64,000 nt of DNA from Nannocystaceae bacterium ST9 (GCA_048320885.1 JBLWFJ010000001.1:5569697-5633696), one strand, 5' to 3'; counted from the first letter of the stretch, positions 1 through 31,352 are shown. Notes: generated by a model from the sequence alone, not told the origin. Numbers and translations are program-made.

Positions 1-3000
1 GGTCGCCGCGCGTCGCCGATCGGGCAGGCGGCCAACGCCCGGTCGAGCAAGCTGGTCGCGCGCTCGCGTTGGCCGCTGGCGTGCAGGAGCTCGGCGCAGC
101 GACGGGTCAACGCGACACGATCGGCCTCGTGGGCCGGCGCGCCGACCAGGCCGGGCAGCTCGTCGAGTCGGGGATGATCGAGCAGCGGATCGAGCAGCGG
201 ATCGAGCAGCGGATCGAGCAGCGGGAGCAGCTGCTCGAGCGCGGGCTCGCTGCGGCCGGCCTCGGCCAGCGCGTCGCCGAGCCGGTATTGGAGATCGATC
301 CGGTCGGGCGCGAGCGAGCGCGCGTCGGCGAACGCGTCGGCGGCCAGGCCCGGCTCTCGATCGGCGCGCAGGCGCAGGCCGAGCTCGACGCGGGCGCGCA
401 GGCGGGTCGCGTCGTCGTGGGCGAGCCCGGCCTGTTCGGCGATCTCGTCGAGCACCGTGCTCGACAAGCCACCGATCCGCGCGCCGGCCTGCAAGGCCAA
501 GTCGAGCACCTCGGCCCAGCGCCCGCGCTCGCGCAGCAGGCCGAGCAGGCCCGAGAACGCCTCGCGATCGGCGAGCGCCCGCTCGGTCCGCTCGCGCAGG
601 ATGGCGGCGATCCGCGAGCTCGCGGGCGCCTGGCGGGTGGCGTCGCCGATCCGGCGCTCGAGGGCGGCGAGGCCGGCCGACCAGAGCCGAGCCAGCGCGG
701 ACTCGTGCAGGTCGAGCTCGCGGGCCAGTTCGTCGAGTCGCTCGCAGAGTCGATCGATCAAGGCGCCGAGCTCGGCGTGCTCGTGGGCGAGCCGCTCGAT
801 CAGCGTCGCGTGCAGCGAGGGATCGCCGGGATCGATCCGCGCGGCCGCCAGGGCCAGGCGATCGGCGCGGCTGCGATACGCGAGCCCACCCTCGCGCTCG
901 GCCACGTAGGCCAGGCCGAGCAGCTCGACGATCGGAGCGAGCGCGCCGGCGTCGAGCGCCAGGCTCTCGACCCCGCTCCACCAGGCCGCGACCGCCTTGA
1001 CCGAGTCGTGGGTCAAGGTCGCGCGCAGGGCCGCGATCGCGACGGGCAGTCGCTCGGGCGCGTACTCGCGAGCGACTCGCAGCGCCGAGCGAGCGAGCGC
1101 GCGAGCCAGCTCGGGCTCGCGCGGCTCGTCGATCCGATCGATCAAGCCGAGCAGTCGCTCGGCACACGGTTCGCCGGCCTCGCCGAGCAGGCGCAACATT
1201 CGGCCGACCAGCGCCTGCAAGCGATCGGCCGCGGCTTGCTGATCGAGCGCGAGGATCCGGCGATCGATCTCGGCGAGCTCCTCGTCGACCCGACCGAGCC
1301 CGCGGACCGCCCAGTCGCGCAGCTCGAGCAGCTCGCTGCGCTCGGCCAGCTCGGCGGGCAGGGCCTCGAGCGCGCGCAGGCAGGTGTGCGGATCGTCGAT
1401 CGCTCGCGCGGCCCGGGCGAGCTTCTCGATCATCCGCAGCGGCGGCTCGGCGGGCGGGTTGGCGGACTGCTCGGTCAGCAAGCTGGCGAGCAGCGCGACG
1501 AAGCGACCCTGCTCGCCCGCGCTCGCGCACAGGTCTTCGAGCGCGGCCAGCAGATCGAGCTCGTTGGGGTGACGACGCAGACCGGCGCGCAGCAGTTCGA
1601 AGCCGTCGGCGCGGCGATCGAGGCGGGTCGCGAGCAGCTCGGCCTCGGCCACGTAGGCGCGCGCGGGCAGCCGCTCGTCGAGGGCGAGGCGCAGCTGCTC
1701 GCGGGCCTCGGCCTCGCCCTGCGCCTGGGCGGCGTCTTCGTTCTCGCGCAGCAGCACGCGCTTGCCCTCGCGGGTGACCAGGCGCAGCCACTGCTCGGCG
1801 ACCTCGACGTGCAGACGAGACATCGGCTCGGCCTCGCGGGCGGCCTGGCGAATCGCGACCAGGGCCTCTTCGGGCCGCTCGAGCCGCTCGAAGGCCGAGG
1901 CTCGCTGGCGCAGGAGTTCGGCCCGCTCGATCGCCGCGCCGGCGCTCGGGTGCGCGAGCAGGGTCTCGCTCGCACGCAGCAGCAGCGGGGCGTCGTTGGT
2001 CCGCCGGCCGAGGTCGACCAGCCCGGTCAGCGCGCCCGCGTCGTTCGGATCGATCGCCAGCGCGCGCTCGAGCCAGCGGCGGGCCTGATCGAGCTCGTCG
2101 GCCTCGAGCGCGAAGCGGGCCAGCTCGCGCGCGGGGATCAAGAAGCGCGGATCGTCGGCGGGCAGGCGCTCGGCGAGCTGCCGCCAATGACCGAGCGCGG
2201 CTTCGCGATCACCTTCGGCCAGGCGCAGCTCGGCCAGCTCGAGCCGGGCTTCGAGGCGCTCGGGGGCGAGCCGCAGCAGCTGCTCGAGCAGGGCCGCCCG
2301 CTCGCGGATCGCCGCCACACGATCGTCGGTCTCGGCCGTCGGCTTGCCGAGCAGCGCGAGCAGGCGCTCGAGCTGGGCGACGGTCCGTGCTCGATCGCCG
2401 GCGTGCAGGCCGGCGTGGATGCGGGCGCGCAGCACCTGCTGAAGCCGCGGGCGATCGTCGAGCGCGCGCAGGCTGGCCTCGTAGGCGTCGGCCAGGCGAT
2501 CGTCGTCGGGTCGCAGCGCGTGCGCGCGAGCGTAGAGCTCGGCTCGCTCGCGCTCGTCGCCGGCCAAGCGAGCCGCGCGTTCGAGCCAGGGCAGGCTGTC
2601 TTCGCTGCCGGCCAGGGTCTCAGCGATCTCGCGGGCCAACCCGGCGGCCCGCTGCGACCAGCGGGGATCTTGGCTCGCGCGACCGAGCTCGATCAGCAGC
2701 TTGTGGAGCCGCTCGGCGACGGTCAGCCGCGACTTGAGCTGACGCAGCCGATGGCGGGCGAGATCGAGGAACTCGACCGCCCGCTCGCGCTCGCCGATCT
2801 CCAGGGCGAGCAGGCCACAGCGACGCGCGAGCGAGCCGAGCTGGGCGTGCAGCGATCCTTCGAGCTCGGGCTCGGGCTCGGTCGCCTCGATCTGCGCGAG
2901 CTCGGCCTGCAAGACCTCGAGCAGCGGCGCGAGCTGTTCGAGCGCGGCCGCGGCTCGGCCCGCTCGCTCGAGCGCGCGGCCGTAGCTCAGCTGGATCGTG

Positions 3001-6000
3001 CGATCGTCGGGTCGCAGCGCCCGAGCACGCGCGAGCTGTTCGACCGCGCGGCGCAAGCTGGTGTCGGTCAGCGCTCCGGTGTCGCGCTCGTCGGCCAGCA
3101 CGCGCGCGAGCAAGCTGGTGCCCGCCCGGCCGCGGGCCTCGGCCTCGATGTCGCTGCGCTCGGCCGCCGCCGCGTCGTCGGCGAGCTCGAGCCAGCGCTC
3201 GGGCTCGACCTCGCCGCCGCCGAGCTCGATCAGCTCGACCAGCTCGCTGAACGCCCCGAGCTTGCGCAGGGCCTCGCGCAGGGCGGCGAAGATCGCCGGC
3301 TCGCCGACGTGGCGAGCGGCCAGCTCGCGCAAGAACGCCGGCTGGTCGGCGAGCTCGAGCGTGCCGACCAGGCCGAGCAGGAGTCGGGCCTGGTTGCGCG
3401 CGTCGATCCGGTGGTTGGCGGCCAGGCGATCGAGCCGCTCGAGCGCGAGTCGAAGCTCGCCACCGGGCAGGCGCCGACGCGCGAGCGCGTGCAGGCCCGG
3501 GTGATCGGGGAAGTCGACGCTGGCGCGATCGAGCAGCATCTCGCCGAGCTCGGAGAACCCGGGCAGCTCGGCGATCGCGGCTCGATCGGCGGCCGCGACC
3601 AGCTCGCCGACCCGCTCGAGCGCCCGACGATCGCGGCTGGCCTGCTCGAGCGCCGACGCGGCGAACTGCTGCCACTGGCGACGCAGCGTGGCGACTCGCT
3701 CGCGAGCGCTGCGCTCGTCGGGATCGAGCTCGATCGCGAGCGCCGGATCGCCGACCAGCTCGAGCAGCCCCGCCAACGCGCGCACGCCCAGCGCCAGACG
3801 ATCGGGCGCGTGGCTGTGCAGCAGCTCGAGCGCCGAGTCGAGCAGCCAGACTCGCCGGCGACCGTGCACGTGCAGGCCGGCCGAGCCCGCGAGGTCGATC
3901 AAGCGGGCCGCGCAAGCCTCGATGTCGTGCTCGAGCAGGCGCAGCAGTCGATCGAGCAAGACCGGATCGCCGGCGGCGTCGCTGGCCTCGCCGAGCATGC
4001 GCTCGAGATCGGCGAGCTCGTCCTCGACGCGATCGAGCTTGCGGACCGCCCACACGCGCAGGTCGAGCAGCTCGGGCTCGGCCGCGGCTTGACCCGAGAG
4101 CCGATCGAGCGCGTCGAGGGTCGTGCGGGCGGCCTCGGCCGCGCGGGCCGAGAGCGCCAGCTCGCGCGCCAGCTCGTCGCGCTCGCGCCCGGGCGGCAGC
4201 GCGTCGACGACTCGCCGCTGCGATCGCAGCACGCGATCGCGATGCCGGCCCTGATCGTCGCCGGCCAGGCGCTCGAGTCGAGCGCGAACTCGGCCACGCA
4301 GCTCGCTGGCGCCGAGCGCCTCGCCGGAGGACTGGATCAGCAGGCCCTCGAGCAGCCCGAGCGCCGGATCGAGCTCGCCGAGCTCGATCGAGAGCTCGGC
4401 CTCGCGCAGGGTCTGCTCGCCGCTCAGCTCGGTGCCGAGGGCCAAGCGCAGCTCGGTGCGGGCTGCCAGCTCGCGGCGAGCTCGAAGCGAGGGATCGGCG
4501 TCGGCCAGCTGCGGGTGCGCGAGCAGGTCGAGCCAGCGCTGGGCGAGCTCGCGGTGGCGTTCGCTGCCGGGCTCGGTCGACGCGACCGCCCGCTCGAACG
4601 CCGCGATCGCCTCGAGCGGCTGACCGAGCAGGGCCTGGGCCCGCGCGACGTCGCCTTCGAGCTCGGCGAGCTGGTGGTGATCGAGGCCGGTCGGATGATC
4701 GAGCAGCGCTCGCGCGGCGATCAGCACCTTGCTCGGATCGTCGAGCATGCACGCGAGCGCGTGCCGGCGAGCGAGCGCCTCGGGGTCGTCGGGTCGCAGG
4801 AGCAGCGCCCGCTCGAGCAGGCGATGGGCGTCGAGCAGCTCCGCGGCCTCGTGCCTGCCGGGCGCCGGCTGCAAGCGCTGCTCGGCCAGCCGCTTGGCGA
4901 CTTCGAAGAGCCGGGGATCGTCGTCGCGCAGGCCGGGCTCGGCCAGCGCCCACAGCCGCAGCGCCTCGTGCAGCTCGGCGTGGCGCAGGCGTTGGCCGGC
5001 CAAGGTCATCAGCGCGTCGACGTCGCTCGGATCGAGGCGCAGCAGCTCCTCGTGCAGGGGGATCAACGCGTCGAGCCGATCGTCGAGCTCGCTCTCGTCT
5101 TCGCCGTCGCGCGCGGGCGTCGGCGCACGATCGTGGAGCAGCGCGATCCGGGCTCGCAGCGCGGCGATCCATCCGCTGCGCAGCGGCTCGTCGAGCGTGG
5201 AGGGATCGAGCTCGTCGAGGTCGAGCCCGGTCTGCGCGCGGGCACGACCGCGGAAGCGATCGAGTCGCTCTTGGCCGAGCTGCTCGAGCGCGGGACGATC
5301 GTCGAGCTCGCGCAGGCGAAGCTCGAGCTCGACGAGCAGCGACTCGTCCTCGGGGGCGAGCTCGTGCGCCCGCCCGAGCAGCTCGACCTCGCGTGGACCG
5401 CTCGCGCGCTCGGCCGCCGCGCGCAGCCACATCACCTGGGCCTCGACGTCCTCGAGCTCGGCTGCGCGTGCGCTGGCCAGCTGCACCGCTTCGTCGTCGC
5501 GCTCGAGCGCGACCAGGCTGGCGAAGAGCAGGGCGCTGGTCCGCTCGCGCAGCTCGACCGGCACGCGAGCATGCGCGGCGCTCAACAGCTCGCGGGCCCG
5601 CAGGTGATCGCCGAGCTCGCTGGCCAGCTCGCCGCAGCGCAGCGCCAGCTCGGCGGCTTCGACCCCGGCCTCCGACCAGCGCTGCTCGTCCCAGAGCGGC
5701 AGCAGGCAGGCCAGCGCGTCGCGGGCCAACGAGGGATCGGGCACGAACGCATGGAGGACCGCCTGCGCACGGCCGAGTCGCCAGCGTAGATCGGCGCGGC
5801 GCGGGGCGAGCTCGATCGCCCGGCGGAGCTCGGCGATCGCCCGCTTGGCCAGCTCGGCGTCGACGCTCTGCGGATCGTCGCCGAGCCCGGCGTCGCGCAG
5901 CAGCAGCGATCCGGCCCGAGCGCGCGCACGCACCTCGCTCTCGACGTCGCGATCGTCGGCGGCCGAGCCGGCGATCCGCAACCATGGTTCGACGCCGGCG

Positions 6001-9000
6001 GCCAGCTCGAGCCCGCGCTCGCTGGCCTTGCCGAGCAACCCGAGCAGCTCCGGCCAGCGCCGACGAGCCTGCAGGCGAGCGATCAGCTCGGCGAGCGCCG
6101 GCGGATCGTCGAGCCGGGCCTCGGCCTGCTCGCGCAGCAACCCGAGCGCGGCGGGCTCGTCGACGACCTCGACGACATGCTGCGCGAGCGCTTCGAAGAG
6201 CGCGCCCGTGCTCGCGGCCGGCAGCGAGCGCTCGCGGATCAGCGCGTTCAGCCAGGCCGCCGCGCGGGCGATCGTCGCCGCGTGCGGCTGAGCGTCGTCG
6301 ACGACCAATTGCTCGGCGGCGCAGCGCAGCCACAGCGCTCGGATCAGGCGCGCGTCGGAGGGGTTGGCGATCAGCCGCTCGCGCAGCAGCGCGTCGGTCC
6401 GCTCGCGCAGCTCGGCGTGCTCGAGCTCGCCGGCCAGCGCGAGCAGGCGCTCGAGCGTGGCGATCTCGCCCTCGGCCGCGATGACCTGCTCGAGCGCCGG
6501 CCAGCGGGCGAGCAGTCGCTCGCGTGCGCCGTGGCGAGCGAGCAGGGTCAGAGCGTCGAGCGCGAGCTCGATCGTCGCGATCCCATGCGGACTCAGCAGC
6601 TCGAGTGCGGCGTCGGCCAAGCTGGCCGCGACCTCGCGCTCGGCCTGCTCGGCGAGCGCCAGCAAGCGGCTCGCGCTGGCTCGCCGATCCTCGTCGTGCA
6701 GCGCGAGCAGGCGCGCGACCAGGCCCTCGCGCCGCGCACTCGCGAGCCCGGGCGCGAGCAGGCGGGCCTCGACGCTGGCCTGCTCCTCCTGGACCCGACC
6801 CAGCCGACGGATCGCCCACTCGCGCAGCTCGGCCAGCTCGCCGCGCTCGACTCGCTCGGGCTCGAGTTGGTCGAGTCCGAACGCGACGGTCGCCGGATCT
6901 TCGAGCGCGCGCCCGAGCTCGATCGTCAGCATCGCCGCCGCGTCGCCCTCGCGGGCGCGCGAGCGATCGCCGAGCGCCACTCGCAAGCTGCGGGCCGCCC
7001 GAGTAGCGAGCTCGGTCCACTCGCCGGTCGCTCGCCGACTGGCCAAGAGCTCGCGCAAGGCCGCGATCGCCCGCGGCTCGATCGTCGGAGCGCCGAGCAG
7101 CGCTTCGAGCCGCTCGATCGCCTGACCTGGACGATCGAGCGCGCGCGCCAGCAGATCGATCTCGGCCAGCCGCTCGTCGAGCTCGAGCTCGACGCCCGGG
7201 GTCTCGCGCAGCACGGCCCGCGCTCGCGCCTGCGCGGCGAGATCGTCGAGCGCCAGGCCGACGCGCAGCCACGCTCGGTTGCCGGCCTCGCGCTCGCGCG
7301 AGCGGACCAAGCCGGGGCTCAGTCGCTCGGCTCGCGCGAACGAGTCGAGCGCGGCCCGACCCTGGTTCGGATCGCCCTCGCGTTCGAAGAGCCGGGTCAG
7401 CGCGCGCGCGCGGGCCAGCTCGAGCGTGGCGCGGTGCTCGTCGGACTCGCCGGCGTCGAGCAGCGCGAGCTGGGCCGCGACGGCCTCGGACGCGAGCGTG
7501 GGATCGTCGATGTCCTGGGCGACCTCGGCGAGCAGCGCGAGCGCGTCGCGATGGCTGGGATCCAGTCGCAGCGCTCGCTCGACCAACCCGTGTGCGAGCT
7601 CGGGCTCGCTGGTGTCGAGCGCGTGGCGAGCCAGCGCCAGCGCCGGTCGCAAGAAGCGAGGATCGTCGGCGTCCAGGCGCTCGCCCGCGACCGTCCACAG
7701 CTGGCGTGCTTGCTCGTGATCACCCTGCTCGTCGCGCAGGTTGCCGAGGATCAGCAGCGCGGTCGTGTGCTCGGGCCGCAAGACCAGCAGATCCTCGAGC
7801 AGCTCGGCCAACTCGTCGCGCCGGCGATCGAGGGCCTCGTCCTGCTCGACCACGCCGATCAGTCGCTCGAGCAGCTCGGCGCGCAGGGCCGGATCGGCGC
7901 GTCGCTCGATCTGCCCGCGCAGGTGCAGCTCGAGTCGCTCGATCTCGCCGCGCTCGCGCAGCGCCTGCTCGAGCTCGTCGGCCAGCGCGAGGTCCTCGGG
8001 GCGCAGCTCGACCGCGCGCTCGAGCAGCTCGATCCGCGTGCTCGGCAGCCCGTCGACCGGCTGGTCGAGCTGATCGAGGCGCTCGACCCCGGCCTCGTCG
8101 AGCACCCGAGCCGCGCGCGCGAGCCAGGCCCCGAGCCGCTCGTCGGCGTCGTCGCGACCGAGCAGCCCGCTCGCGTGCTCGAGCGCGATCGCCAGCGCGC
8201 GCGCGTCTTCGGCCAGCTCGCGCAGGGCCACGAAGGTCTGCTCGGCGATCGCCTCGCGCAGCGCCGGATCGACCAGCTCGGGATCGGCCTGGGCCAGCTC
8301 GCGCTCGCAGGTCGCGAGCAAGTCGGCGGCCTGCTCGAGCTCGCCGACCTCGCGCAAGAGTCGAGCGAGGCGCAGGCTCAGCTGGCCGCGCTCGCTCGGC
8401 GTGGCCCGGGCGTCGTCGTCGAGCAGCGCCTGCAGCTGCGGGATCGCGTGCTCGGGCCGAGCGAGTCGCTCGTAGCAGTCGGCCAGGGCCGCGCGCAGCT
8501 CGAGGCGATCGGGGGCGAGCAGCAGCGCGCGCTCGAGCTGCTCGCTGGCCTCGGCCAGCTCGCCGCGGGCCAGCAGCGTCCGACCCAGGCGGGCGCGGGC
8601 GTGCAGCTCGGTCGCTCGCTCGCGCAGCCGGACCGCGGCCTTGGCCAGCCGCGCCAGACCTTCGCGATCCTCGTCGTCGAGCAGCTGCTCGATCTGCGCG
8701 AGGATCTTCTCGGGCCGATCGAGCTCGTCGACCGCCGCCCACAGGTCGGCGAGTCGCTCGTGGATCCGCAGGGCCTGGGCCGCGCGTTCGACCAGCGCCT
8801 CGCCGCGTCGCTGCCCGCGAGCGTGGACGATCAACAAGTCGAGGATCCGCGCGCGGTCGGTCGGCGGAGCCAGCTCGAGCGCGGCCTCGAGCACGTCGAG
8901 CACCCAGGCTCGCTTGCTGGCCCGCTCGCCGAGCGTGCCGCGATCGAGCGACTCGCCCGACGTCGGGATCGCGCCGGCGACCGAGCGCAGGCTCTCCCAG

Positions 9001-11174
9001 GCCTCGTCGATCCGACCGGCGCGCTTGAGCAGGCGGGCGCGCTCGAGCAGCAGCGCGTCGCGATCGTCGAGCTCGGCCTCGCCGAACGCGTCGATCTCGA
9101 GCAGTCGGCCGAGGTAGTCGGCGGCCGCCATCGCGTCGCCGAGCTTGCGCTCGAGCGCGGCGCCTCGGCGAAGCAGATCGACGTCGCCGGGATCCTGATC
9201 GATCGCGATCGCCAGCTCGCGGCGGGCGAGCTCGTGGTGCTCGCGATCGTCGAGCTCGCTGGCCAGCGCGATCAGCCGCTTGCGCAGACCCTGGCGCTCG
9301 CCGGGCGCGGCCTGCTCGAGCCGCATGCGCAGCAGCGTGGTCGCGGTCGCCCGCTCGTCGATCCGCAAGGCCAGATCGATCGCCCGATCGAGCAAAGCGA
9401 GGTCGTCGGGGTCGTCGGCGATCGCCGCGGTCAGCAGCGCGAGCGCGTGGTTGAGGCCGCCGAGCTCGGAGCTCCCGTGCTCGATGAAGCCGCGCGCGAC
9501 CTGGGCGCGAAGATCGGCGCGGCGCCGCGGGTTGCGGGTGTGCTCGAGCGCCTCTTCGAGCGCCTCGAGCACGTGCGGCACGGTGGTCAACGATCGTCGC
9601 TCGCGGGCCAGCTCGGCCACGCGCGCGCGGGCCAGCACGACCAAGGCCTCGGGCAGCAGCGCCGACAGCATGCCATGCAGCGCCCGCGCGGCCGCTTCGT
9701 CGGGATCGCTGCGCTCGGACACGCGGGCGATCGCTCGGCGATCGCGACTGCTGGCCAGCTGCTCGCGCAGGCGCTGCGTCAGCGGACCGATGATCGCCAG
9801 CGCGCTGCGAGCATCGTCGAGTCGATCGATCAGCAAGCTCGCGACCGCGAGCTCGAGTCGGGCCTGCACGCCGGGCGGATGCGGCTGGCGGCAGTCGGCC
9901 GCGAGCAGGCGCGCGAGGTCTTGCGCGCGACCCTCGGCGGCCAGCAAGATCGCCAGCAGCCGTCGCGGCTCGCGGGCGCTCGGCTGGAGATCCAGCCACT
10001 CGCGGACCGCCTGCAGGGCCTCGCCGCGATCGAGGAAGCGAGCCAGGTCGACGCGCCAGCGGACCAGCGCCAGGTGGGCGGCGGGGAACGACTCGAGCGT
10101 GTGCGAGAGCCCAGCCAGCTCGCGCAGCGCGGGCCCCAGCGCCTCGCTCGGGCTCGGCGTCGAGTTCATCAGCCGCAGCAGCTCGCGGGCGCGGTCGAGT
10201 CCGCGGGCGATCGGTTCGTCGAGCAGCCCGGGCTCGCCCGGCAACGAAGCGACGGCAGCGAGCGCGTCCTCGCTGGGCTGTGCCGGCCATGCCGGGTCGG
10301 CGACTTCGTGTTCGCCAGGCTCGAACTCGGTCAGCGGCCCGCGCAGTTCGAAGGTCGCGCCACGCCGACTCAGGGCCAGCTCGGTGACCACGCAACCCTC
10401 GAGGTTCGGCGCCTTCCAGCCGACCGACGCGAACGCGCGGGTCATCGCCAGCCGAGCCGGGTCGATCGTCAGCGTGCCTTCGTCGCCGGCGACCACGGCC
10501 TCGCGCAGCCCGGCGATTCGACCGGCGGCCAGCCGCTTGGCGATCGCTCGCCAGAGTCGGCGGGCCGAGGTGTCGCGACCTTCGCGATCGATCGACGCCG
10601 TGCGAGCGCGGCCCTCGTCGTGCTCGTCGGCGTGCACGAGCGCGGCCGGCAGATCGCCGATCAACCACAGTCGACAAGGGCGCAGCGCGAGCCGGCGCTG
10701 CTCCGGCAGCAGATCGAACGCGACCAGCAGCCAGACCTGCTTGCCGGTCGTGGTCTCGCCGCCGATCATCAAGCATGGCCGCGGCCGCTCGGCCTCGGGC
10801 AGCTCGCGGCGCAGATCGATCTCGACCTCGCGGATCCGCAGGCCGAGCAGCGACTGATCGATCAGCCGTTCGCTCAGCCAGGGCAGCAGCGCGCGGTCTT
10901 CGATCACCAGCGTCGCGCGAACCACTCGGCAGCGACGCTTGCGAAACTTGGTCGCCGTCAGCGGCCCACGCAGCGGCATGCGGACGCCGGGGATCAGCGC
11001 CTCGTACTCGCGCAGCCGCACGCCCGGCGCGAGCGTGCGACGGACCAGGGCCAGCAGCGCTCGCCGCTCGCGAAACAGCAACGAAAACCCGAGCACGTTG
11101 CCGACACCGGGACCTTGTCCCGGAGCGTCGGCCGTGGGCTGCTCATCGTCGTGGTTCGGAGGCTCGACGCTCAC
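1..11174 (-). CDS. Giant (>=3,700 aa) alpha-helical/TPR-like repeat protein, 3' end beyond window start; N-terminal ~270 aa non-repeat domain then thousands of residues of A/L/R/E/D-rich helical repeats
   Basis: The + frame 0 ORFs (69..5789, 6177..11282) use rare codons (CAA, CGA, GTA, GAT, GAA, CAT, CTT, GTT) whose complements are the preferred codons of this genome (TTG, TCG, TAC, ATC, TTC, ATG, AAG, AAC). The in-register minus frame is therefore the real one. That frame has no reported ORF because it never hits a stop before position 1 (edge-truncated ORFs are absent from the track; compare the unlisted HlyD gene at 62995..64000). Hand translation of the minus frame from 11174 downward gives a plausible protein with ideal GC3. 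Start uncertain: GTG at 11172-11174, alternatively GTG near 11292-11294. Confidence 0.6.
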   Translation of the reverse strand, partial: MSVEPPNHDDEQPTADAPGQGPGVGNVLGFSLLFRERRALLALVRRTLAPGVRLREYEALIPGVRMPLRGPLTATKFRKRRCRVVRATLVIEDRALLPWLSERLIDQSLLGLRIREVEIDLRRELPEAERPRPCLMIGGETTTGKQVWLLVAFDLLPEQRRLALRPCRLWLIGDLPAALVHADEHDEGRARTASIDREGRDTSARRLWRAIAKRLAAGRIAGLREAVVAGDEGTLTIDPARLAMTRAFASVGWKAPNLEGCVVTELALSRRGATFELRGPLTEFEPGEHEVADPAWPAQPSEDALAAVASLPGEPGLLDEPIARGLDRARELLRLMNSTPSPSEALGPALRELAGLSHTLESFPAAHLALVRWRVDLARFLDRGEALQAVREWLDLQPSAREPRRLLAILLAAEGRAQDLARLLAADCRQPHPPGVQARLELAVASLLIDRLDDARSALAIIGPLTQRLREQLASSRDRRAIARVSERSDPDEAAARALHGMLSALLPEALVVLARARVAELARERRSLTTVPHVLEALEEALEHTRNPRRRADLRAQVARGFIEHGSSELGGLNHALALLTAAIADDPDDLALLDRAIDLALRIDERATATTLLRMRLEQAAPGERQGLRKRLIALASELDDREHHELARRELAIAIDQDPGDVDLLRRGAALERKLGDAMAAADYLGRLLEIDAFGEAELDDRDALLLERARLLKRAGRIDEAWESLRSVAGAIPTSGESLDRGTLGERASKRAWVLDVLEAALELAPPTDRARILDLLIVHARGQRRGEALVERAAQALRIHERLADLWAAVDELDRPEKILAQIEQLLDDEDREGLARLAKAAVRLRERATELHARARLGRTLLARGELAEASEQLERALLLAPDRLELRAALADCYERLARPEHAIPQLQALLDDDARATPSERGQLSLRLARLLREVGELEQAADLLATCERELAQADPELVDPALREAIAEQTFVALRELAEDARALAIALEHASGLLGRDDADERLGAWLARAARVLDEAGVERLDQLDQPVDGLPSTRIELLERAVELRPEDLALADELEQALRERGEIERLELHLRGQIERRADPALRAELLERLIGVVEQDEALDRRRDELAELLEDLLVLRPEHTTALLILGNLRDEQGDHEQARQLWTVAGERLDADDPRFLRPALALARHALDTSEPELAHGLVERALRLDPSHRDALALLAEVAQDIDDPTLASEAVAAQLALLDAGESDEHRATLELARARALTRLFEREGDPNQGRAALDSFARAERLSPGLVRSREREAGNRAWLRVGLALDDLAAQARARAVLRETPGVELELDERLAEIDLLARALDRPGQAIERLEALLGAPTIEPRAIAALRELLASRRATGEWTELATRAARSLRVALGDRSRAREGDAAAMLTIELGRALEDPATVAFGLDQLEPERVERGELAELREWAIRRLGRVQEEQASVEARLLAPGLASARREGLVARLLALHDEDRRASASRLLALAEQAEREVAASLADAALELLSPHGIATIELALDALTLLARHGARERLLARWPALEQVIAAEGEIATLERLLALAGELEHAELRERTDALLRERLIANPSDARLIRALWLRCAAEQLVVDDAQPHAATIARAAAWLNALIRERSLPAASTGALFEALAQHVVEVVDEPAALGLLREQAEARLDDPPALAELIARLQARRRWPELLGLLGKASERGLELAAGVEPWLRIAGSAADDRDVESEVRARARAGSLLLRDAGLGDDPQSVDAELAKRAIAELRRAIELAPRRADLRWRLGRAQAVLHAFVPDPSLARDALACLLPLWDEQRWSEAGVEAAELALRCGELASELGDHLRARELLSAAHARVPVELRERTSALLFASLVALERDDEAVQLASARAAELEDVEAQVMWLRAAAERASGPREVELLGRAHELAPEDESLLVELELRLRELDDRPALEQLGQERLDRFRGRARAQTGLDLDELDPSTLDEPLRSGWIAALRARIALLHDRAPTPARDGEDESELDDRLDALIPLHEELLRLDPSDVDALMTLAGQRLRHAELHEALRLWALAEPGLRDDDPRLFEVAKRLAEQRLQPAPGRHEAAELLDAHRLLERALLLRPDDPEALARRHALACMLDDPSKVLIAARALLDHPTGLDHHQLAELEGDVARAQALLGQPLEAIAAFERAVASTEPGSERHRELAQRWLDLLAHPQLADADPSLRARRELAARTELRLALGTELSGEQTLREAELSIELGELDPALGLLEGLLIQSSGEALGASELRGRVRARLERLAGDDQGRHRDRVLRSQRRVVDALPPGRERDELARELALSARAAEAARTTLDALDRLSGQAAAEPELLDLRVWAVRKLDRVEDELADLERMLGEASDAAGDPVLLDRLLRLLEHDIEACAARLIDLAGSAGLHVHGRRRVWLLDSALELLHSHAPDRLALGVRALAGLLELVGDPALAIELDPDERSARERVATLRRQWQQFAASALEQASRDRRALERVGELVAAADRAAIAELPGFSELGEMLLDRASVDFPDHPGLHALARRRLPGGELRLALERLDRLAANHRIDARNQARLLLGLVGTLELADQPAFLRELAARHVGEPAIFAALREALRKLGAFSELVELIELGGGEVEPERWLELADDAAAAERSDIEAEARGRAGTSLLARVLADERDTGALTDTSLRRAVEQLARARALRPDDRTIQLSYGRALERAGRAAAALEQLAPLLEVLQAELAQIEATEPEPELEGSLHAQLGSLARRCGLLALEIGERERAVEFLDLARHRLRQLKSRLTVAERLHKLLIELGRASQDPRWSQRAAGLAREIAETLAGSEDSLPWLERAARLAGDERERAELYARAHALRPDDDRLADAYEASLRALDDRPRLQQVLRARIHAGLHAGDRARTVAQLERLLALLGKPTAETDDRVAAIRERAALLEQLLRLAPERLEARLELAELRLAEGDREAALGHWRQLAERLPADDPRFLIPARELARFALEADELDQARRWLERALAIDPNDAGALTGLVDLGRRTNDAPLLLRASETLLAHPSAGAAIERAELLRQRASAFERLERPEEALVAIRQAAREAEPMSRLHVEVAEQWLRLVTREGKRVLLRENEDAAQAQGEAEAREQLRLALDERLPARAYVAEAELLATRLDRRADGFELLRAGLRRHPNELDLLAALEDLCASAGEQGRFVALLASLLTEQSANPPAEPPLRMIEKLARAARAIDDPHTCLRALEALPAELAERSELLELRDWAVRGLGRVDEELAEIDRRILALDQQAAADRLQALVGRMLRLLGEAGEPCAERLLGLIDRIDEPREPELARALARSALRVAREYAPERLPVAIAALRATLTHDSVKAVAAWWSGVESLALDAGALAPIVELLGLAYVAEREGGLAYRSRADRLALAAARIDPGDPSLHATLIERLAHEHAELGALIDRLCERLDELARELDLHESALARLWSAGLAALERRIGDATRQAPASSRIAAILRERTERALADREAFSGLLGLLRERGRWAEVLDLALQAGARIGGLSSTVLDEIAEQAGLAHDDATRLRARVELGLRLRADREPGLAADAFADARSLAPDRIDLQYRLGDALAEAGRSEPALEQLLPLLDPLLDPLLDPLLDHPRLDELPGLVGAPAHEADRVALTRRCAELLHASGQRERATSLLDRALAACPIGDARR
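177..224 (-). repeat. Perfect 4x tandem 12-bp repeat (atcgagcagcgg)4 inside the giant gene; encodes (LLDP)4 in the minus coding frame
   Basis: Read directly in sequence at 177-224; in-frame with the giant minus-strand CDS. Confidence 0.8.
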
Positions 11175-11407
11175 CGGAAATTCGCTGCCCGAGGGTCGCG
11201 CGGGCCGCTGAGTATAGCGACAAAACCGAGCGCCGGGTCGATCCGGGCGGTCGGTCTGGAAGCCCGATCGGGAGCCCCGTGAGACGAGCGGCACGGCGCA
11301 CGTGTACAGGTCGGTTCGCCCCGCCCCGCGCTCTGCGGGATCGAGCGCGATCCGGACGACGCGCGAAACACCGGATCGCCGCCCCGCGTATGCTCGTCGG
11401 GCCACCC

Positions 11408-12539: not shown

Positions 12540-13187
12540 TCACGTGTCCCGAGAGCTCGGTGAAACGAGATCGTCGATATCGAAGTTGGTTCGGACTTCG
12601 ATTTTTGCCTGGTCATAGACGGCCGCGAGGTGCTTCCGCGTATTGTTGCGAACGATGGGCGAGAGATCCAGATCTGCCGTGCAGAACAAACGCAGGTGTT
12701 CCGGCGCCAACTCGGTGGCGCGGACGAGTACGGCGGCGAGAATGGTCTCGTCGAAGGGCTTGAGTCCGGGATCCGGGACTTCCGTACGCAGCGAGATCGA
12801 ACGATTCAGCATCGCCTCGTCGAGAGCGAAGACGTTCATGCCTCTCGAGTTGGCGACCTCGGCAATTCGATCATCCAAATGAGCGAGTTCCATGGCCACG
12901 GTGTTCGAGAATCGGGTCAGGAAATCATTGGCGGCCGCCGACTCACGTGAGTCGATTTGTCCGTGCTCCACTGCCCATTTGCGAAATTGCTGGAGAATTG
13001 CCTGTTCCTTTGGCTGGTATTTTCGTAGGATGACGGACTTCGCCTCGCGCAAGGCGATGCTCGGAACATGCATCGAAATCTCGCCCCTCGCCGCGCGGTC
13101 GAGCAAGGCCAGCGCGGAAGGGGACCGACGGAATGCGGGAGCGCAGACGTCCACGACCCAGTTCGACTCGACGAACACGTGGATCAT
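12540..13187 (-). CDS. Hypothetical 215-aa protein, PIN-like N-terminus (MIHVFVESNWVVD...), low-GC foreign gene
   Basis: ORF 12540..13187; ~58% GC with A/T-ending codons (aaa, gaa, att, ttt, aat), atypical for this genome. Start ATG overlaps the upstream gene's stop (ATGA). Confidence 0.6.
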   Translation of the reverse strand: MIHVFVESNWVVDVCAPAFRRSPSALALLDRAARGEISMHVPSIALREAKSVILRKYQPKEQAILQQFRKWAVEHGQIDSRESAAANDFLTRFSNTVAMELAHLDDRIAEVANSRGMNVFALDEAMLNRSISLRTEVPDPGLKPFDETILAAVLVRATELAPEHLRLFCTADLDLSPIVRNNTRKHLAAVYDQAKIEVRTNFDIDDLVSPSSRDT

Positions 13188-13621
13188 CAGTGCTCCGCGA
13201 CCACTCGTCCATCGGCGACGGCGGGGAGGACATAGCGAGCGACGTCCCAGCGAACTTCTTCATTGAGGTTGTCGGATGAACCCGACGTGAGCGATTCGAG
13301 CCAGCGCTCGACGATCGATTGAAACTCGCGTTCGTCTTCGGGAACATTGGCAATCCCGAGCAGCGTCGCGGTCGGATAGATGCCGGTTTCGCGGATCGAG
13401 TCTTCGCCCTCGTAGGTGTCACGCAACAACCAGGTCAGTTCGGGCGTGAAGATCAGTCCGATGGGGCAGTTGCTGGCCAGCATGTAGGACTTCATCTGCG
13501 CGAGCGCGCCGGCGCGATCGAAACCACGGCGCTTCAGCTCCACCACGAGCCGTCGCTCCGGGAGATCGGGAGCGAACACGGTGAAGTCGGCGGAGGGACC
13601 GGAGCGCGACATGGTGAGCAT
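13187..13621 (-). CDS. Small (144 aa) PD-(D/E)xK nuclease-fold protein (type I restriction enzyme HsdR N-terminal-like; motif PDL...VELK)
   Basis: Real 3' portion of ORF 13187..14566 starting at MLTMSRSG; PD-x(n)-ExK motif 'APDLPERRLVVELK'; lower GC; translationally coupled (ATGA) to the downstream PIN-like gene. Confidence 0.6.
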   Translation of the reverse strand: MLTMSRSGPSADFTVFAPDLPERRLVVELKRRGFDRAGALAQMKSYMLASNCPIGLIFTPELTWLLRDTYEGEDSIRETGIYPTATLLGIANVPEDEREFQSIVERWLESLTSGSSDNLNEEVRWDVARYVLPAVADGRVVAEH

Positions 13622-13677
13622 GCTAGCACGAGCGCGCTGCGTGGTGCTCGCCTGCCAGTGTTCGGCGAACAACGGCT

Positions 13678-14964
13678 TCACGCCGTCGCGACCGGCCGCT
13701 TCTCCGCCCGCATCAACCACCCGATCAACGGCGTCGCCATGAACGTACTGACCAAGGCCATGATCACCAGCATCGTGAACATGTCCCGCGGCACCACGCC
13801 CATGTCGTAGCCGATGTTGATCACGATCAGCTCCATCAGCGCGCGCGTGTTCATGCACACCCCGATCGTCAGCGCGCTGCGGTTGGTCTCGCCGACCGCC
13901 TTGGCGGCCAGGAACGCCCCGCCGAATTTCGACCCGAACGCCACGCAGATCACCAGGGCACACACCGCCAGCCCCCACCAGCCGTCGAGCGTGCCGATGT
14001 CGGTGCGCAGGCCGGTGTAGGCGAAGAACACCGGGAGCAGCAGCATCATCACCAGCGGCGAGACCCGCTCTTTCCACAGCGCGACGAACTTGCGGTCGTC
14101 GTGCAGGGCGATGCCGATCACGAAGCCGCCGATGATCGCGAACACGCCCAGCGAGCTGGTGATCGAGGCCGAGGCGAAGAGCACGATCAGCAGGACCGCG
14201 ATGGTCGGCAGGCCGAGCCCGCCGCGCCGGACGAGCTCGCGGGCGATGTACTTCTTGAGCAGCGGGCGGGCGATGAAGAACACGCCCACCACGTAGGCGC
14301 CGATCAGCCCGATTCGCTCGAGCGCCCACACGAAGGTGAATTGCTCGGCGACGATCAGGCTGACCGAGCCCAGCAGCAGCCAGCCGATCACGTCGTCGAT
14401 CGCCGCCGAGCCGATCACCAGCGCCGCGGTCCGGGTGTGCGAGAGGCCCAATTCCATGAAGATCCGGCCGAGGATCGGGATCGCGGTGATCGACATGGCG
14501 ACGGCGAAGAAGAGCCGAAACCCGAGCAACGAAGGCCGCGGATCGGCGAGCTGCTCGTGAAACCATGGCGCGGTGAAGTAGCCGGCCAAGAAGGGCAACA
14601 GCAGGCCGGCCAGGCTGACCGCGACGACCGAGACCTTGCGCTGGCCGAGCTGCTCGCCGAACTCGAATTCCAGACCGATCTGGAACATCAGCAAGATCAG
14701 CCCGATCTGCGCGATGCCGACGAAGATGGTCGAGGTCGAGGGATGAAAGATCTGGGTCGAGAGCTCGGGGAAGAGCAGGCCGAGCGCCGAGGGTCCGAGC
14801 AGCAAGCCGGCGAGGATCTCGCCCGACACGTCGGTCTGGCCGAGCCGCCGGACGAGCACCGTGACGATCCGTGTGGCCAGCAAGATGACCAGCAATTGGA
14901 TCAACAGGTGGAGGACCAACTCCTCCGTCTTCGAACCGACCGCGGTCGTGACTTCGGCGAGCAT
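13678..14964 (-). CDS. Cation:proton antiporter (CPA2/Kef/NhaP-type monovalent cation:H+ exchanger)
   Basis: ORF 13678..14985; multi-TM protein with typical CPA2 N-terminus (...LLIQLLVILLATRIV...GEILAGLLLGPS); start likely Met at 14964. Confidence 0.85.
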   Translation of the reverse strand: MLAEVTTAVGSKTEELVLHLLIQLLVILLATRIVTVLVRRLGQTDVSGEILAGLLLGPSALGLLFPELSTQIFHPSTSTIFVGIAQIGLILLMFQIGLEFEFGEQLGQRKVSVVAVSLAGLLLPFLAGYFTAPWFHEQLADPRPSLLGFRLFFAVAMSITAIPILGRIFMELGLSHTRTAALVIGSAAIDDVIGWLLLGSVSLIVAEQFTFVWALERIGLIGAYVVGVFFIARPLLKKYIARELVRRGGLGLPTIAVLLIVLFASASITSSLGVFAIIGGFVIGIALHDDRKFVALWKERVSPLVMMLLLPVFFAYTGLRTDIGTLDGWWGLAVCALVICVAFGSKFGGAFLAAKAVGETNRSALTIGVCMNTRALMELIVINIGYDMGVVPRDMFTMLVIMALVSTFMATPLIGWLMRAEKRPVATA

Positions 14965-15025
14965 GCGAGCATCGTCCCTTCGCACTCCTGGCGACGCAAG
15001 GGTTGCGTGCGTGCGAACGAGTGGA

Positions 15026-29911: not shown

Positions 29912-31207
29912 TCATCCCCACCCGCCCACATCCGCTCGAAACCCCTCGGCCAGCATCATCCAACCGATCACTTCGTGAAGATCGAGCCGACTGCCGTCCC
30001 ACGTCATCGACTGCTCGCCCGAGGGCTCGGCCGTGTCGAGCCAAGCGGCGACGGCCTCGGGATCGATGCAATGGTTCGGTGCAGGCGCGATGGTCAGACC
30101 GTGGGCATTGATGAATTCGAGCTTGCCCGCCCGAACCTCGACGTGCAATTTGCCCTCGTGGACCAAGCCGTGGTGGCCAGGGCAGAGCAGCACGAGGTTC
30201 GAGATCGAGGTCTCGCCGCCTTCTGCCCACGCGTCGACGTGATGGGCCTGCAAATGCCGCGAGCGCCCGCACCCCGGTACGCGACAGCCACCGTCGCGCA
30301 GCGTCAGCGCCCGCCCGATCGCAGCCGGGATGGTTCGACGCGAACGGCCGACGTCGAGGATCTCGCCCGACTCGCCGACGCTCACGTCGACCCGCGTGGC
30401 GTCGCAGGCCAGCATTCGCGCGACATGGAGCGGCAATGGCGTGCCATCGCGCAGGAATCCACCGATCCCCTCGGAGCCGTGGGCGAGCTGTTCGGGCGTG
30501 GTCATCATGATCAGCTCGCAACCGGTGCCACGCGTGGTCGGCTTGCGCTCGAGGTAGCCACGCGCGACCGCGACCAGCGCGTCGGCTTGATCGGAGCCGT
30601 AATCCCCCGCGGGAGATTGTGGGTCGTTGGCGGCGCGGGCAGGCGTCGAATCTCCCGCGGGAGATTGCGCCATGTCCATCGCCGCTCGAACAACGAGCGC
30701 CTCCTCGGGCCCGACCTGGGCGACGATTCGAACCATGCCATCCGGGGTCTCGGTGAAGCGGGCGAATCGGCGCGGCGCTTCGCCGCCCTGCTCGGAATTC
30801 GCGTGAGCTCGGACTCGCCGCAATCCAGCGACGATCTTGTCGAGTTGGCTGGCGGTCGCGGCCTTGGCCACGTCGATCAGGGTTTGTTGGGTGGCCGGCG
30901 TAGCGGCGCGGGTGAGCGCACGAACCTTCGAGTAGGTCAGCTCACCGGCCGCGAATGCTCGATCGATCAAAGCCAGCTCACCGAGCGCCCGGGCGATACG
31001 GACATGCTCGCTGGCCGTCTTGTTGCTGGTGCCCGTCCACCAGGCCAGCCACGCGACCATCGAGACGCAGCCCGTGTCCGCCCAACCATTGCGGGCGTCG
31101 AATTCACGGATTCGACCGAGCCATGCGTGCTTGACTGCATCGACGTTGCGGGCGAGTTCGGCGATCTGCCGGGCGAGGTGTTCGATGGATTCCAAACAAT
31201 CGGCCAT
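29912..31207 (-). CDS. DUF222 domain + HNH endonuclease (13E12-repeat-type 'HNH endonuclease signature motif' protein), mobile-element-like
   Basis: ORF 29912..31210; HNH motif (…CRVPGCGRSRHLQAHHVDAWAEGGETSISNLVLLCPGHHGLVH…); internal direct repeat QSPAGDxx; lower local GC. Confidence 0.8.
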   Translation of the reverse strand: MADCLESIEHLARQIAELARNVDAVKHAWLGRIREFDARNGWADTGCVSMVAWLAWWTGTSNKTASEHVRIARALGELALIDRAFAAGELTYSKVRALTRAATPATQQTLIDVAKAATASQLDKIVAGLRRVRAHANSEQGGEAPRRFARFTETPDGMVRIVAQVGPEEALVVRAAMDMAQSPAGDSTPARAANDPQSPAGDYGSDQADALVAVARGYLERKPTTRGTGCELIMMTTPEQLAHGSEGIGGFLRDGTPLPLHVARMLACDATRVDVSVGESGEILDVGRSRRTIPAAIGRALTLRDGGCRVPGCGRSRHLQAHHVDAWAEGGETSISNLVLLCPGHHGLVHEGKLHVEVRAGKLEFINAHGLTIAPAPNHCIDPEAVAAWLDTAEPSGEQSMTWDGSRLDLHEVIGWMMLAEGFRADVGGWG

Positions 31208-31352
31208 CACGTGAATATGATATCATTGAAGCGCGCGAATGTCAAGTCGAGTCCACGATGGGCGGGTGGCCCATCGCGCTCACGCGACCGCACGGACCAC
31301 GATAGCGCGTTCGGAATGAGCAGAGGGCTGAGCTGCGAGAGCCCGGAGCTGA

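What the first reader, a model, noticed from the sequence alone, without database searches (positions are those of the whole stretch)
12540..13677. Low-GC horizontally acquired island with a translationally coupled two-gene module: small PD-(D/E)xK nuclease-like protein + PIN-like 215-aa protein (candidate novel toxin-antitoxin/defence pair)
GC drops from ~72% to ~58% and A/T-ending codons appear exactly across two minus-strand genes that overlap by ATGA. The upstream gene has a textbook PD-x(n)-ExK motif in a 144-aa HsdR-N-like fold. The downstream product starts like a PIN domain (hVFVESNWVVD, later acidic motifs FALDE, FDET, TADLDL). The pair sits between unrelated housekeeping genes with no other restriction-modification components. 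Compact nuclease + PIN pairs resemble TA/abortive-infection modules, but this architecture is not one I can assign to a named system.
Basis: partly seen in the sequence, partly recalled or inferred. Interest (0 to 1): 0.7.

Follow-up and report, generated by a model that had tools for sequence, protein, structure and literature searches.

The report
Mobile PIN nuclease toxin–antitoxin-like gene pair
A small, low-GC, two-gene cassette in a myxobacterial chromosome encodes a VapC-type PIN ribonuclease preceded by an acidic protein with a stripped-down restriction-nuclease fold. The pair always travels together and is organised like a toxin–antitoxin module, but its partner protein is of a type not seen in the toxin–antitoxin and defence catalogues checked here.

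Summary
Two coupled minus-strand genes (B 12540-13187; A 13187-13612) form the lowest-GC stretch of the window, with GC 0.60 against 0.71 in the flanks and GC3 0.72-0.77 against 0.93-0.94.

- **The pair** has A directly upstream of B in 18 of 18 related loci (about 31-81% identity; Myxococcota and one Acidobacteriota MAG). Most show an ATGA/GTGA overlap and nearly all have different neighbours.
- **Expression**: a conserved extended -10 element a few bases before A's start implies a leaderless transcript.
- **Decay**: B is a pseudogene in two lineages while A stays intact.

PADLOC, NCBIfam, plasmid, phage and viral-contig searches found nothing.

My best reading is a VapBC-like toxin–antitoxin or abortive-defence module with a non-canonical nuclease-fold partner. 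Function is inferred, not shown. I rate it a new variant of a known kind, of moderate interest.

The parts
12540..13187 (-). Gene B: 215-aa PIN-domain protein (VapC-like, with PIN_12/DUF4935-like topology). It is the predicted metal-dependent ribonuclease and the toxin or effector of the pair. The start is ATG 13187-13185; NCBI annotates a GTG three codons later.
   Evidence: - ORF.
- Pfam: PIN_12 at E 0.013 and 16.4 bits against a cut-off of 32. 20 of 29 homologues hit PIN_12, best E 1.3e-4.
- Acidic residues in 63 full-length cluster representatives: E7 58/59, E48 63/63, D/E124 54/63, D146 58/63, D172 55/60.
- Start: the N-terminus MIHVFVESNW is conserved in homologues.
13187..13612 (-). Gene A: 141-aa acidic protein (144 aa if read from the first ATG at 13621). 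It has a minimal PD-(D/E)xK-like N-terminal half followed by a helical C-terminal half with invariant W107 and P133. It is the predicted partner or antitoxin of B.
   Evidence: - ORF and homologues.
- Pfam: sub-threshold HSDR_N_2, PDDEXK_3, Mrr_cat and Uma2 hits across members.
- Motif: D12 44/44, E28 44/47, K30 43/47; W107 and P133 49/49.
- pI is 4.4-5.4 in the 12 entries computed (window plus 11 loci).
13184..13189 (-). Coupling junction TGATGA. A's stop is TGA 13189-13187, B's start is ATG 13187-13185, and a second in-frame TGA lies at 13186-13184. This is a 1-nt overlap and a remnant of the family's ATGA overlap.
   Evidence: Sequence read directly. Junctions compared across loci.
13620..13628 (-). 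Extended -10 promoter element TGCTAGCAT (TGnTAnnnT). It ends 7 nt before the ATG at 13612, which predicts a leaderless A-B transcript.
   Evidence: TGnTAnnnT ends 5-9 nt upstream of A's start in 8 of 11 distinct loci. The background frequency is 1.5e-4 per position. It is also present 15-18 nt upstream in L016 and L017. The generic sigma-70 scan found no full promoter.
13629..13677 (-). The rest of the 56-67-bp spacer between the Na+/H+ exchanger's stop (13680-13678) and gene A. It holds an imperfect palindrome around AGCGCGCT that could be an operator. This is unverified.
   Evidence: Sequence. The palindrome search found nothing conserved between loci.

Best explanation
This is an autonomous, horizontally mobile two-gene module built like a VapBC-type (type II) toxin–antitoxin or abortive-defence system.

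- **Transcription**: the pair is transcribed from its own extended -10 promoter, probably as a leaderless mRNA.
- **Coupling**: translation of B is coupled to A through overlapping stop and start codons.
- **Gene B** is a VapC-like PIN-domain, metal-dependent endoribonuclease. It has a roughly 70-residue helical insert (the PIN_12/DUF4935 topology) and acts as the growth-arresting effector.
- **Gene A** is an acidic protein with a minimal PD-(D/E)xK fold that lacks the usual N-terminal helix and strand. It is the obligate partner that holds B in check, that is, the antitoxin. Because D12/E28/K30 are mostly conserved, A may also keep a metal or nucleic-acid binding site of its own.

Shown here: the folds, the conserved catalytic residues, the strict co-occurrence and gene order, the promoter motif, the atypical composition, and the decay of B with A intact. 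Inferred: toxicity of B, neutralisation by A, RNA as the substrate, and any role against phage.
For: - **Fold and site of B**: PIN fold and a conserved acidic site.
- **Co-occurrence**: A lies immediately upstream of B in 18 of 18 loci, spanning about 31-81% identity.
- **Coupling**: ATGA/GTGA overlap in 9 of the 12 loci whose junction was printed, TGATG here. This matches the organisation of PIN TA operons described in PMC5499597.
- **Charge**: A is acidic (pI 4.4-5.4) in all 12 entries computed (window plus 11 loci); B is 5.0-6.5 where intact.
- **Promoter**: a conserved extended -10 lies 5-9 nt from A's start in 8 of 11 loci. TA transcripts are predominantly leaderless in M. tuberculosis (PMC8485053 abstract).
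- **Decay of B**: B carries at least two frameshifts in three independent contigs (L012-14), next to an intact A that keeps its ExK. B is also broken in L010. So B is the dispensable, counter-selected partner and A alone is tolerated.
- **Mobility**: neighbours differ in almost every locus. Pair GC is below the ±5-kb flank in 11 of 11 loci. The distribution is patchy across Myxococcota and an Acidobacteriota MAG.
- **Precedent**: a PIN_12-domain protein (Cosus/Brc24) gives phage defence that depends on PIN residues (bioRxiv 10.1101/2024.07.02.601719).
Against: - There is no experimental data.
- A has none of the DNA-binding domains of known VapB antitoxins (AbrB, RHH, Phd/YefM, HTH). Its nuclease-type triad is conserved in about 90% or more of members, which a purely inhibitory protein would not need.
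- B is not basic, unlike many toxins.
- No hit in PADLOC, and neither gene reaches any Pfam or NCBIfam threshold.
- No homologues on plasmids, phages or viral contigs.
- There is no consistent defence-island context.
- The L010 frameshift may be an assembly error.
Confidence: 0.5

Rival explanations
1. The pair is a two-nuclease effector or defence complex rather than a toxin with its antidote. A is an active minimal PD-(D/E)xK endonuclease, or a nucleic-acid sensor. B is an active PIN RNase. They act together, for example on invading nucleic acid, and neither simply neutralises the other.
For: - D12, E28 and K30 are conserved in 44/44, 44/47 and 43/47 A homologues.
- The PIN acidic site is conserved.
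- Co-occurrence is strict.
- A PIN_12 protein acts in phage defence.
Against: - A is strongly acidic and lacks the N-terminal helix and strand of the canonical core.
- Its catalytic residues are replaced in 5 lineages (Q/D at position 28; R/T at position 30), and in four of these B is intact.
- A is retained intact where B has decayed.
- No defence-island context and no PADLOC match.
Confidence: 0.27
2. The pair is a non-toxic accessory RNA-processing or RNA-turnover pair, a PIN nuclease with a specificity subunit, that happens to be patchily distributed.
For: Some PIN families (Fcf1, Nob1, Rrp44) are processing enzymes rather than toxins (PMC5499597). B is not basic. Most loci sit among ordinary metabolic genes.
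Against: - Flanks are variable, GC and GC3 are atypical, and the pair has its own promoter.
- B is pseudogenised in some lineages.
- The pair was found in only 3 of about 185,000 species genomes by the pattern scan.
- The stop/start overlap with the small acidic gene first is the TA signature.
Confidence: 0.13
3. The polarity is reversed: A is a DNase toxin and B is its antitoxin or immunity protein.
For: A carries a largely conserved D…ExK motif. PD-(D/E)xK domains serve as toxins in other conflict systems (general knowledge).
Against: - A with an intact ExK persists next to a multiply frameshifted B in L012-14, which would be lethal under this model.
- The gene order, small acidic protein first, is the antitoxin-first order.
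- B's catalytic residues are more strictly conserved than A's.
Confidence: 0.05
4. The pair is chance or an annotation artefact: the low GC and the motifs are coincidental and the ORFs are not a functional unit.
For: Long spurious ORFs are common in high-GC genomes, and many appear.
Against: Both proteins have dozens to hundreds of homologues with conserved cores. Both give confident AF2 models. Adjacency is conserved in 18 of 18 loci.
Confidence: 0.01

Closest known systems
VapBC type II toxin–antitoxin modules (VapC PIN toxins, e.g. M. tuberculosis VapC43, PDB 7vwo)
   Same: - Conserved acidic metal site.
- The smaller acidic gene lies upstream, with a 1- or 4-nt stop/start overlap.
- Patchy, mobile distribution.
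   Different: - Sequence identity to VapCs is only 8-18%.
- Pfam PIN (PF01850) is hit by 1 of 29 members, at E 0.13.
- B carries a helical insert of roughly 70 residues and starts with E-(S/T)-N instead of D-x-N.
- The upstream protein has no AbrB, RHH, Phd or HTH domain. It has a nuclease-like fold and is about twice the size of a typical VapB.
- Toxicity is untested.
Pfam PIN_12 / DUF4935 (PF16289), including the integron-borne defence protein Cosus (Brc24)
   Same: - It is the best Pfam match for B and for 20 of 29 homologues.
- B's model shows the features PMC5499597 describes for DUF4935: a long helical insert after strand S2 and two helices after S3.
- Four to five acidic residues are conserved.
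   Different: - Scores are below the gathering threshold (16.4 bits against 32).
- DUF4935 proteins are about 350 aa, have an uncharacterised α/β C-terminal region, and are described as monocistronic.
- B is 204-221 aa and always follows gene A.
- Whether A corresponds to the DUF4935 C-terminal region (141 + 206 ≈ 350 aa) could not be tested.
PD-(D/E)xK clan small domains: HSDR_N_2 (PF13588), PDDEXK_3 (PF13366), Mrr_cat (PF04471), Uma2/TT1808 (PF05685, PDB 1wdj)
   Same: - A's residues 4-57 align to HSDR_N_2 positions 32-85.
- Only PD-(D/E)xK-clan families recur among the sub-threshold hits.
- The D…ExK motif is conserved.
   Different: - About the first 30 model positions (the canonical α1/β1) are absent.
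- The C-terminal 60 residues (WLESL…LPAV…G-R-V) match nothing.
- The protein is acidic.
- There are no helicase, methylase or specificity genes nearby.
DUF1308 (PF07000, human C7orf25): a single polypeptide with a PD-(D/E)xK-like domain followed by a PIN-like domain
   Same: The same two folds occur in the same N-to-C order as the A-then-B gene order (PMC5499597).
   Different: - No member of either family hits PF07000 at E ≤ 1.
- The DUF1308 PIN is said to lack the acidic site, whereas B keeps it.
- DUF1308 is mainly eukaryotic.
- No A-B fusion was seen among the hits.

Membership tests
VapBC (type II TA with PIN toxin) | The toxin has the PIN/VapC fold | tested here: met
   [not shown]
VapBC (type II TA with PIN toxin) | Four conserved acidic active-site residues | tested here: met
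   E7 58/59, E48 63/63, D146 58/63 and D172 55/60 in 63 full-length cluster representatives.
VapBC (type II TA with PIN toxin) | The antitoxin gene lies immediately upstream, is co-oriented, and overlaps or abuts the toxin gene | tested here: met
   True in 18 of 18 loci. ATGA/GTGA overlap in 9 of the 12 loci whose junction was printed, TGATG in the window.
VapBC (type II TA with PIN toxin) | The antitoxin has an AbrB, RHH, Phd/YefM or HTH DNA-binding domain plus a toxin-binding tail | tested here: not met
   No such Pfam hit in any of 28 A homologues. The fold search gives an RE-like fold.
VapBC (type II TA with PIN toxin) | The toxin arrests growth and the antitoxin neutralises it by direct binding | not testable with these tools
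   This needs expression assays or a complex model. The only indirect support is that B decays while A stays intact in L012-14.
Pfam PIN_12 (PF16289, DUF4935) | HMM score at or above the gathering threshold (32 bits) | tested here: not met
   16.4 bits, E 0.013, covering only residues 4-81. The best family member reaches E 1.3e-4.
Pfam PIN_12 (PF16289, DUF4935) | A long helical insert after S2 and two helices after S3 | tested here: met
   The model has helices 43-56, 61-74, 80-102 and 104-112 between β2 and β3, and helices 124-136 and 144-159 between β3 and β4. Compare the description in PMC5499597.
Pfam PIN_12 (PF16289, DUF4935) | A protein of about 350 aa with a C-terminal α/β region, usually monocistronic | tested here: not met
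   B and its full-length relatives are about 190-250 aa and always follow gene A.
PD-(D/E)xK nucleases (HSDR_N_2 and related families) | A Pfam family HMM at or above its gathering threshold | tested here: not met
   HSDR_N_2 scores 12.3 bits against 25. The best member reaches E 6e-4. PDDEXK_3, Mrr_cat and Uma2 are also sub-threshold.
PD-(D/E)xK nucleases (HSDR_N_2 and related families) | Conserved D…(D/E)xK catalytic motif on adjacent β-strands | tested here: met
   D12 44/44, E28 44/47 and K30 43/47. D12 precedes strand 13-16, and E28/K30 end strand 23-29. There are five lineage exceptions (Q/D at 28; R/T at 30).
PD-(D/E)xK nucleases (HSDR_N_2 and related families) | Complete αβββαβ core fold | tested here: inconclusive
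   [not shown]
Type I restriction-modification (HsdR) | Helicase/translocase domains, with HsdM and HsdS partners | tested here: not met
   A is 141 aa with no further domain. The neighbours are a Na+/H+ exchanger and an MBL hydrolase.
Named anti-phage defence systems (PADLOC-DB v2) | A significant match to any system component HMM | tested here: not met
   A has no hit. B has only a GajA ATPase fragment at E 0.008 and 12.8 bits, which is chance.
DUF1308 (PD-(D/E)xK-like + PIN fusion) | A match to PF07000 | tested here: not met
   PF07000 is absent from the families matched at E ≤ 1 by the 28 A and 29 B homologues.

The most novel reading that the evidence does not exclude
The A/B pair would define a new toxin–antitoxin or defence family. 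In it, a VapC-type PIN RNase is controlled by a protein derived from a PD-(D/E)xK nuclease that still keeps its D…ExK site, rather than by a DNA-binding VapB. A would then be a nuclease-fold antitoxin or sensor that may couple recognition of nucleic acid to release of the RNase. A and B together may also be the split counterpart of the roughly 350-aa DUF4935 proteins, whose C-terminal domain is still unassigned.
Probability: 0.35. Interest if true: 0.6.

Novelty: new variant of a known kind. Interest (0 to 1): 0.45.

Why it matters
- PIN-toxin modules are among the most abundant mobile stress and defence elements. The antitoxin classes catalogued for them in the PIN survey read here (PMC5499597) are small DNA-binding proteins.
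- A conserved family in which the PIN nuclease is always partnered with a minimal restriction-nuclease-fold protein would add a new partner class. The family has about 500 clusters at 50% identity, found here in myxobacterial genomes, one Acidobacteriota MAG and many unassigned metagenome contigs.
- It could explain the unassigned half of DUF4935 proteins.
- It would give a compact candidate for TA or phage-defence assays in myxobacteria, where such systems are little studied.
- If it is simply another VapBC-like pair, the value is limited to better annotation of two 'hypothetical proteins', plus corrected start codons.

Tried and rejected
- **Family libraries**: PADLOC, NCBIfam and PHROGs scans of both proteins gave nothing meaningful.
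- **PDB sequence search**: profile searches found no relatives. The E 2.6e-8 hit of A's profile to a designed repeat protein (7rdr) has no passing stretch and is a composition artefact. BpuSI appears only at E 0.75.
- **AFDB50 fold search**: unavailable.
- **Mobile collections**: tblastn of B against plasmids and phages, and a pattern scan of IMG/VR, found no relatives. The A3 alignment was too divergent for a viral scan.
- **Boundary marks**: no flanking direct or inverted repeats mark the cassette boundaries. There is no tRNA in the window and no Rfam family in the region; the one ZMP-ZTP hit at E 0.66 is chance.
- **Promoter and operator**: the generic sigma-70 scan found no promoter. The conserved extended -10 emerged only from comparing loci. 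A conserved operator palindrome upstream of A was sought and not found.
- **'Recent island' idea**: weakened by an orthologous MBL gene (79% identity) 5 kb from the pair in L001.
- **Self-correction**: my early note that D19 is 'not conserved' was corrected by a larger alignment.
- **Failed look-up**: the Enhygromyxa P0019 look-up failed. That locus was recovered through the genome scan instead.

Full report
**1. What is in the sequence**

Two minus-strand ORFs occupy 12540-13621.
- Gene B runs from 12540 to 13187 and encodes 215 aa.
- Gene A ends at 13187. It starts either at the ATG at 13621 (144 aa) or at the ATG at 13612 (141 aa).

The identical proteins are on record as hypothetical proteins ACNOYE_23305 and ACNOYE_23310 of Nannocystaceae bacterium ST9, a myxobacterium.

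The junction reads CAC-TGA-TGA-TCC. A stops at 13189-13187, B's ATG is 13187-13185, and a second in-frame TGA follows. In 9 of the 12 homologous loci whose junction was printed, the overlap is a true ATGA or GTGA.

The compositional anomaly is real.
- GC in 300-bp windows falls from about 0.72 to 0.56-0.62.
- The pair has GC 0.604, against 0.709 for its ±5-kb flanks.
- It is the lowest-GC stretch of its size in the 64-kb window.
- GC3 is 0.72 for B and 0.77 for A. The two flanking genes have 0.94 and 0.93.

Those flanking genes are a Na+/H+ exchanger (13678-14985, minus strand) and an MBL-fold hydrolase (ending at 12523, plus strand). The window holds no tRNA, and no flanking repeats or Rfam family mark the region.

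**2. Gene B is a PIN nuclease**

No library assigns B above threshold. The best Pfam match is PIN_12 at 16.4 bits against a cut-off of 32.

The model has four helices between β2 and β3 and two helices between β3 and β4. [quoted passage not shown] Twenty of 29 homologues hit PIN_12 weakly.

A profile search of 1.84 billion cluster representatives finds 510 relatives at E ≤ 1e-3. The full-length ones are mostly about 190-250 aa. In 63 full-length representatives the acidic residues are kept:

| Residue | Conserved in |
|---|---|
| E7 | 58/59 |
| N9 | 55/59 |
| E48 | 63/63 |
| D/E124 | 54/63 |
| D146 | 58/63 |
| D172 | 55/60 |

I therefore predict B to be an active metal-dependent nuclease. The conserved N-terminus M-(I/R)-H-V-F-V-E-(S/T)-N-W supports the ATG at 13187 as the start, rather than NCBI's downstream GTG.

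**3. Gene A is a minimal, acidic PD-(D/E)xK-like protein**

The evidence is weaker than for B, but it all points the same way.
- HSDR_N_2 scores 12.3 bits against a cut-off of 25, and aligns A residues 4-57 to model positions 32-85.
- Among 28 family members, the only families that recur are from the PD-(D/E)xK clan: HSDR_N_2 in 14, PDDEXK_3 in 14, Mrr_cat in 6 and Uma2 in 1.
- The top Foldseek hit is a putative restriction-endonuclease domain, 9y1l, at E 0.017.

In 49 non-identical homologues:

| Residue | Conservation |
|---|---|
| D12 | 44/44 |
| E28 | 44/47 (Q twice, D once) |
| K30 | 43/47 (R three times, T once) |
| W107, P133 | 49/49 |

D12 immediately precedes strand 13-16, and E28/K30 end strand 23-29. 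D12 is therefore the Asp positioned to act with ExK, whereas D19 sits in the hairpin loop (inference).

The canonical N-terminal helix and strand are missing. The C-terminal 60 residues (WLESL…LPAV…G-R-V) match nothing. A is acidic, with pI 4.4-5.4, in all 12 entries computed (window plus 11 loci).

**4. The two genes form a conserved unit**

Contig look-ups and a genome scan gave 18 loci. A lies directly upstream of B in every one. Identity to the window proteins runs from about 80% down to 31-37%.

Named hosts:
- Enhygromyxa salina
- Archangium violaceum
- a Polyangiaceae MAG
- a 'Candidatus Angelobacter' MAG (Acidobacteriota)

Flanking genes differ in almost all loci. There are two exceptions:
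- L015 and L018 share an msrPQ-like neighbour.
- L001 is the closest relative, with A at 81% and B at 78% identity. It carries an ortholog of the window's MBL gene (79% identity) 5 kb downstream in the same convergent orientation. At least these two lineages therefore inherited the pair vertically.

The pair has lower GC than its flanks in 11 of 11 loci, by 0.001 to 0.105. No relatives appear in plasmid, phage or IMG/VR collections.

**5. Expression signals**

Comparing the DNA upstream of A showed a conserved extended -10 element, TGnTAnnnT.
- Its last T lies 5-9 nt before A's start codon in 8 of 11 distinct loci. The background frequency of the motif is 1.5e-4 per position.
- The motif recurs 15-18 nt upstream in two distant loci.
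- In the window it is TGCTAGCAT at 13628-13620, 7 nt before the ATG at 13612.

This favours the 141-aa start and predicts a leaderless mRNA. Leaderless transcripts are reported to predominate among TA systems in M. tuberculosis (PMC8485053 abstract; PMC3898074). No conserved operator palindrome was found.

**6. Which partner is dangerous?**

In L012-L014 gene B carries at least two frameshifts plus stop codons. These are three contigs from different sequencing runs, with two sequence variants. The adjacent A (146 aa, ExK intact) stays open, and the same A protein is recorded on 17 contigs. B is also split in the Polyangiaceae MAG L010, although that could be a long-read assembly error.

So A alone is tolerated, and B is the partner that gets lost. 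This fits 'B toxin, A antitoxin' and argues against the reverse polarity.

**7. Interpretation**

The organisation is that of a VapBC-like type II TA or abortive-defence module:
- a small acidic gene comes first;
- the stop and start codons overlap;
- the pair has its own promoter;
- composition is atypical and neighbours vary;
- the toxin decays in some lineages.

The effector is a PIN_12-like RNase. I commit to this reading with confidence of about 0.5.

The main reservation is that A keeps a nuclease-type triad in about 90% or more of members. A pure inhibitor would not need this. The principal rival, at about 0.27, is therefore a two-nuclease complex in which A is an active enzyme or sensor. 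A housekeeping RNA-processing role (about 0.13) and reversed polarity (about 0.05) are less likely.

A PIN_12-domain protein, Cosus/Brc24, has been shown to protect E. coli from T7 in a way that depends on PIN residues (bioRxiv 10.1101/2024.07.02.601719). A defence role is therefore plausible, but it is untested for this family.

**8. Comparison with known families**

B works like a VapC, but it does not reach the PF01850 or PF16289 thresholds. It also differs from DUF4935 in length and in being bicistronic.

A resembles HSDR_N_2 and PDDEXK_3 domains but fails their thresholds and lacks part of the core. It is not a known VapB class.

The same pair of folds is fused in DUF1308/C7orf25 (PMC5499597), but no sequence link was detected.

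One lead remains untested. A (141 aa) plus B (about 206 aa) is roughly the length of DUF4935 proteins (about 350 aa), whose C-terminal α/β region is unassigned. The pair could be a split, permuted DUF4935.

**9. Verdict**

The details of the overlap, the motif and the start codon need correcting, as does the 'island' label. This is a conserved, uncharacterised PIN-plus-nuclease-fold pair. It is best filed as a new variant of the VapBC-type TA/defence theme, and it is of moderate interest.

Noticed in passing
window 29912-31210 (-): A second low-GC patch of the window holds a 432-aa DUF222 + HNH endonuclease protein (PF02720 at E 1e-22; PF01844 at E 6e-7). Its GC3 is 0.78, against about 0.9 for typical genes. 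It is probably another acquired, selfish-element-type gene.
   Followed up: partly
window 69-5789 (+), 6177-11282 (+) and 7720-10776 (-): The first 11 kb have the highest GC in the window (0.73-0.76). They carry giant open frames of 1906 aa and 1701 aa, plus a 1018-aa antisense frame, all with low-complexity Arg/Ala/Leu/Gln-rich translations. The two plus-strand frames that were scanned have no Pfam hit. Which strand really codes was not resolved.
   Followed up: no
L012:1083-1745, L013:999-1660, L014:870-1530: The PIN gene is a multiply frameshifted pseudogene in three independent metagenome contigs, while the upstream gene A (P0065, seen on 17 contigs) is intact. This is an apparent orphan partner.
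   Followed up: yes
L016:4743-4985: In one distant locus an 80-aa gene with a weak RHH_1 (CopG-like) hit sits 15 bp upstream of gene A. It may be a three-gene variant that adds a classical DNA-binding antitoxin-type protein, or it may be an unrelated neighbour.
   Followed up: no
window 12579-12602 (+): A terminator-like hairpin followed by a T-run lies on the plus strand inside the 3' end of gene B, 56 nt after the stop of the convergent MBL gene. It could terminate that gene. One such site is expected by chance in this region.
   Followed up: no
window 13178-13187 and 13610-13621: Start codons differ from the deposited annotation. NCBI calls B from a GTG (212 aa), but the conserved MIHVF N-terminus and the overlap favour the ATG at 13187 (215 aa). 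For A, NCBI's 141-aa start at 13612 is supported by the conserved -10 element.
   Followed up: yes
L015:381-1975 and L018:1078-2687: In the two Acidobacteriota-type loci the pair sits next to the same msrPQ-like genes (Ferric_reduct + Oxidored_molyb). This is the only conserved neighbourhood seen apart from the MBL gene shared by the window and L001.
   Followed up: no
L010:6001-6454: In the Polyangiaceae MAG the PIN gene is split into two frames, and A carries ExR instead of ExK. This is either a real decay intermediate or a long-read assembly error.
   Followed up: partly
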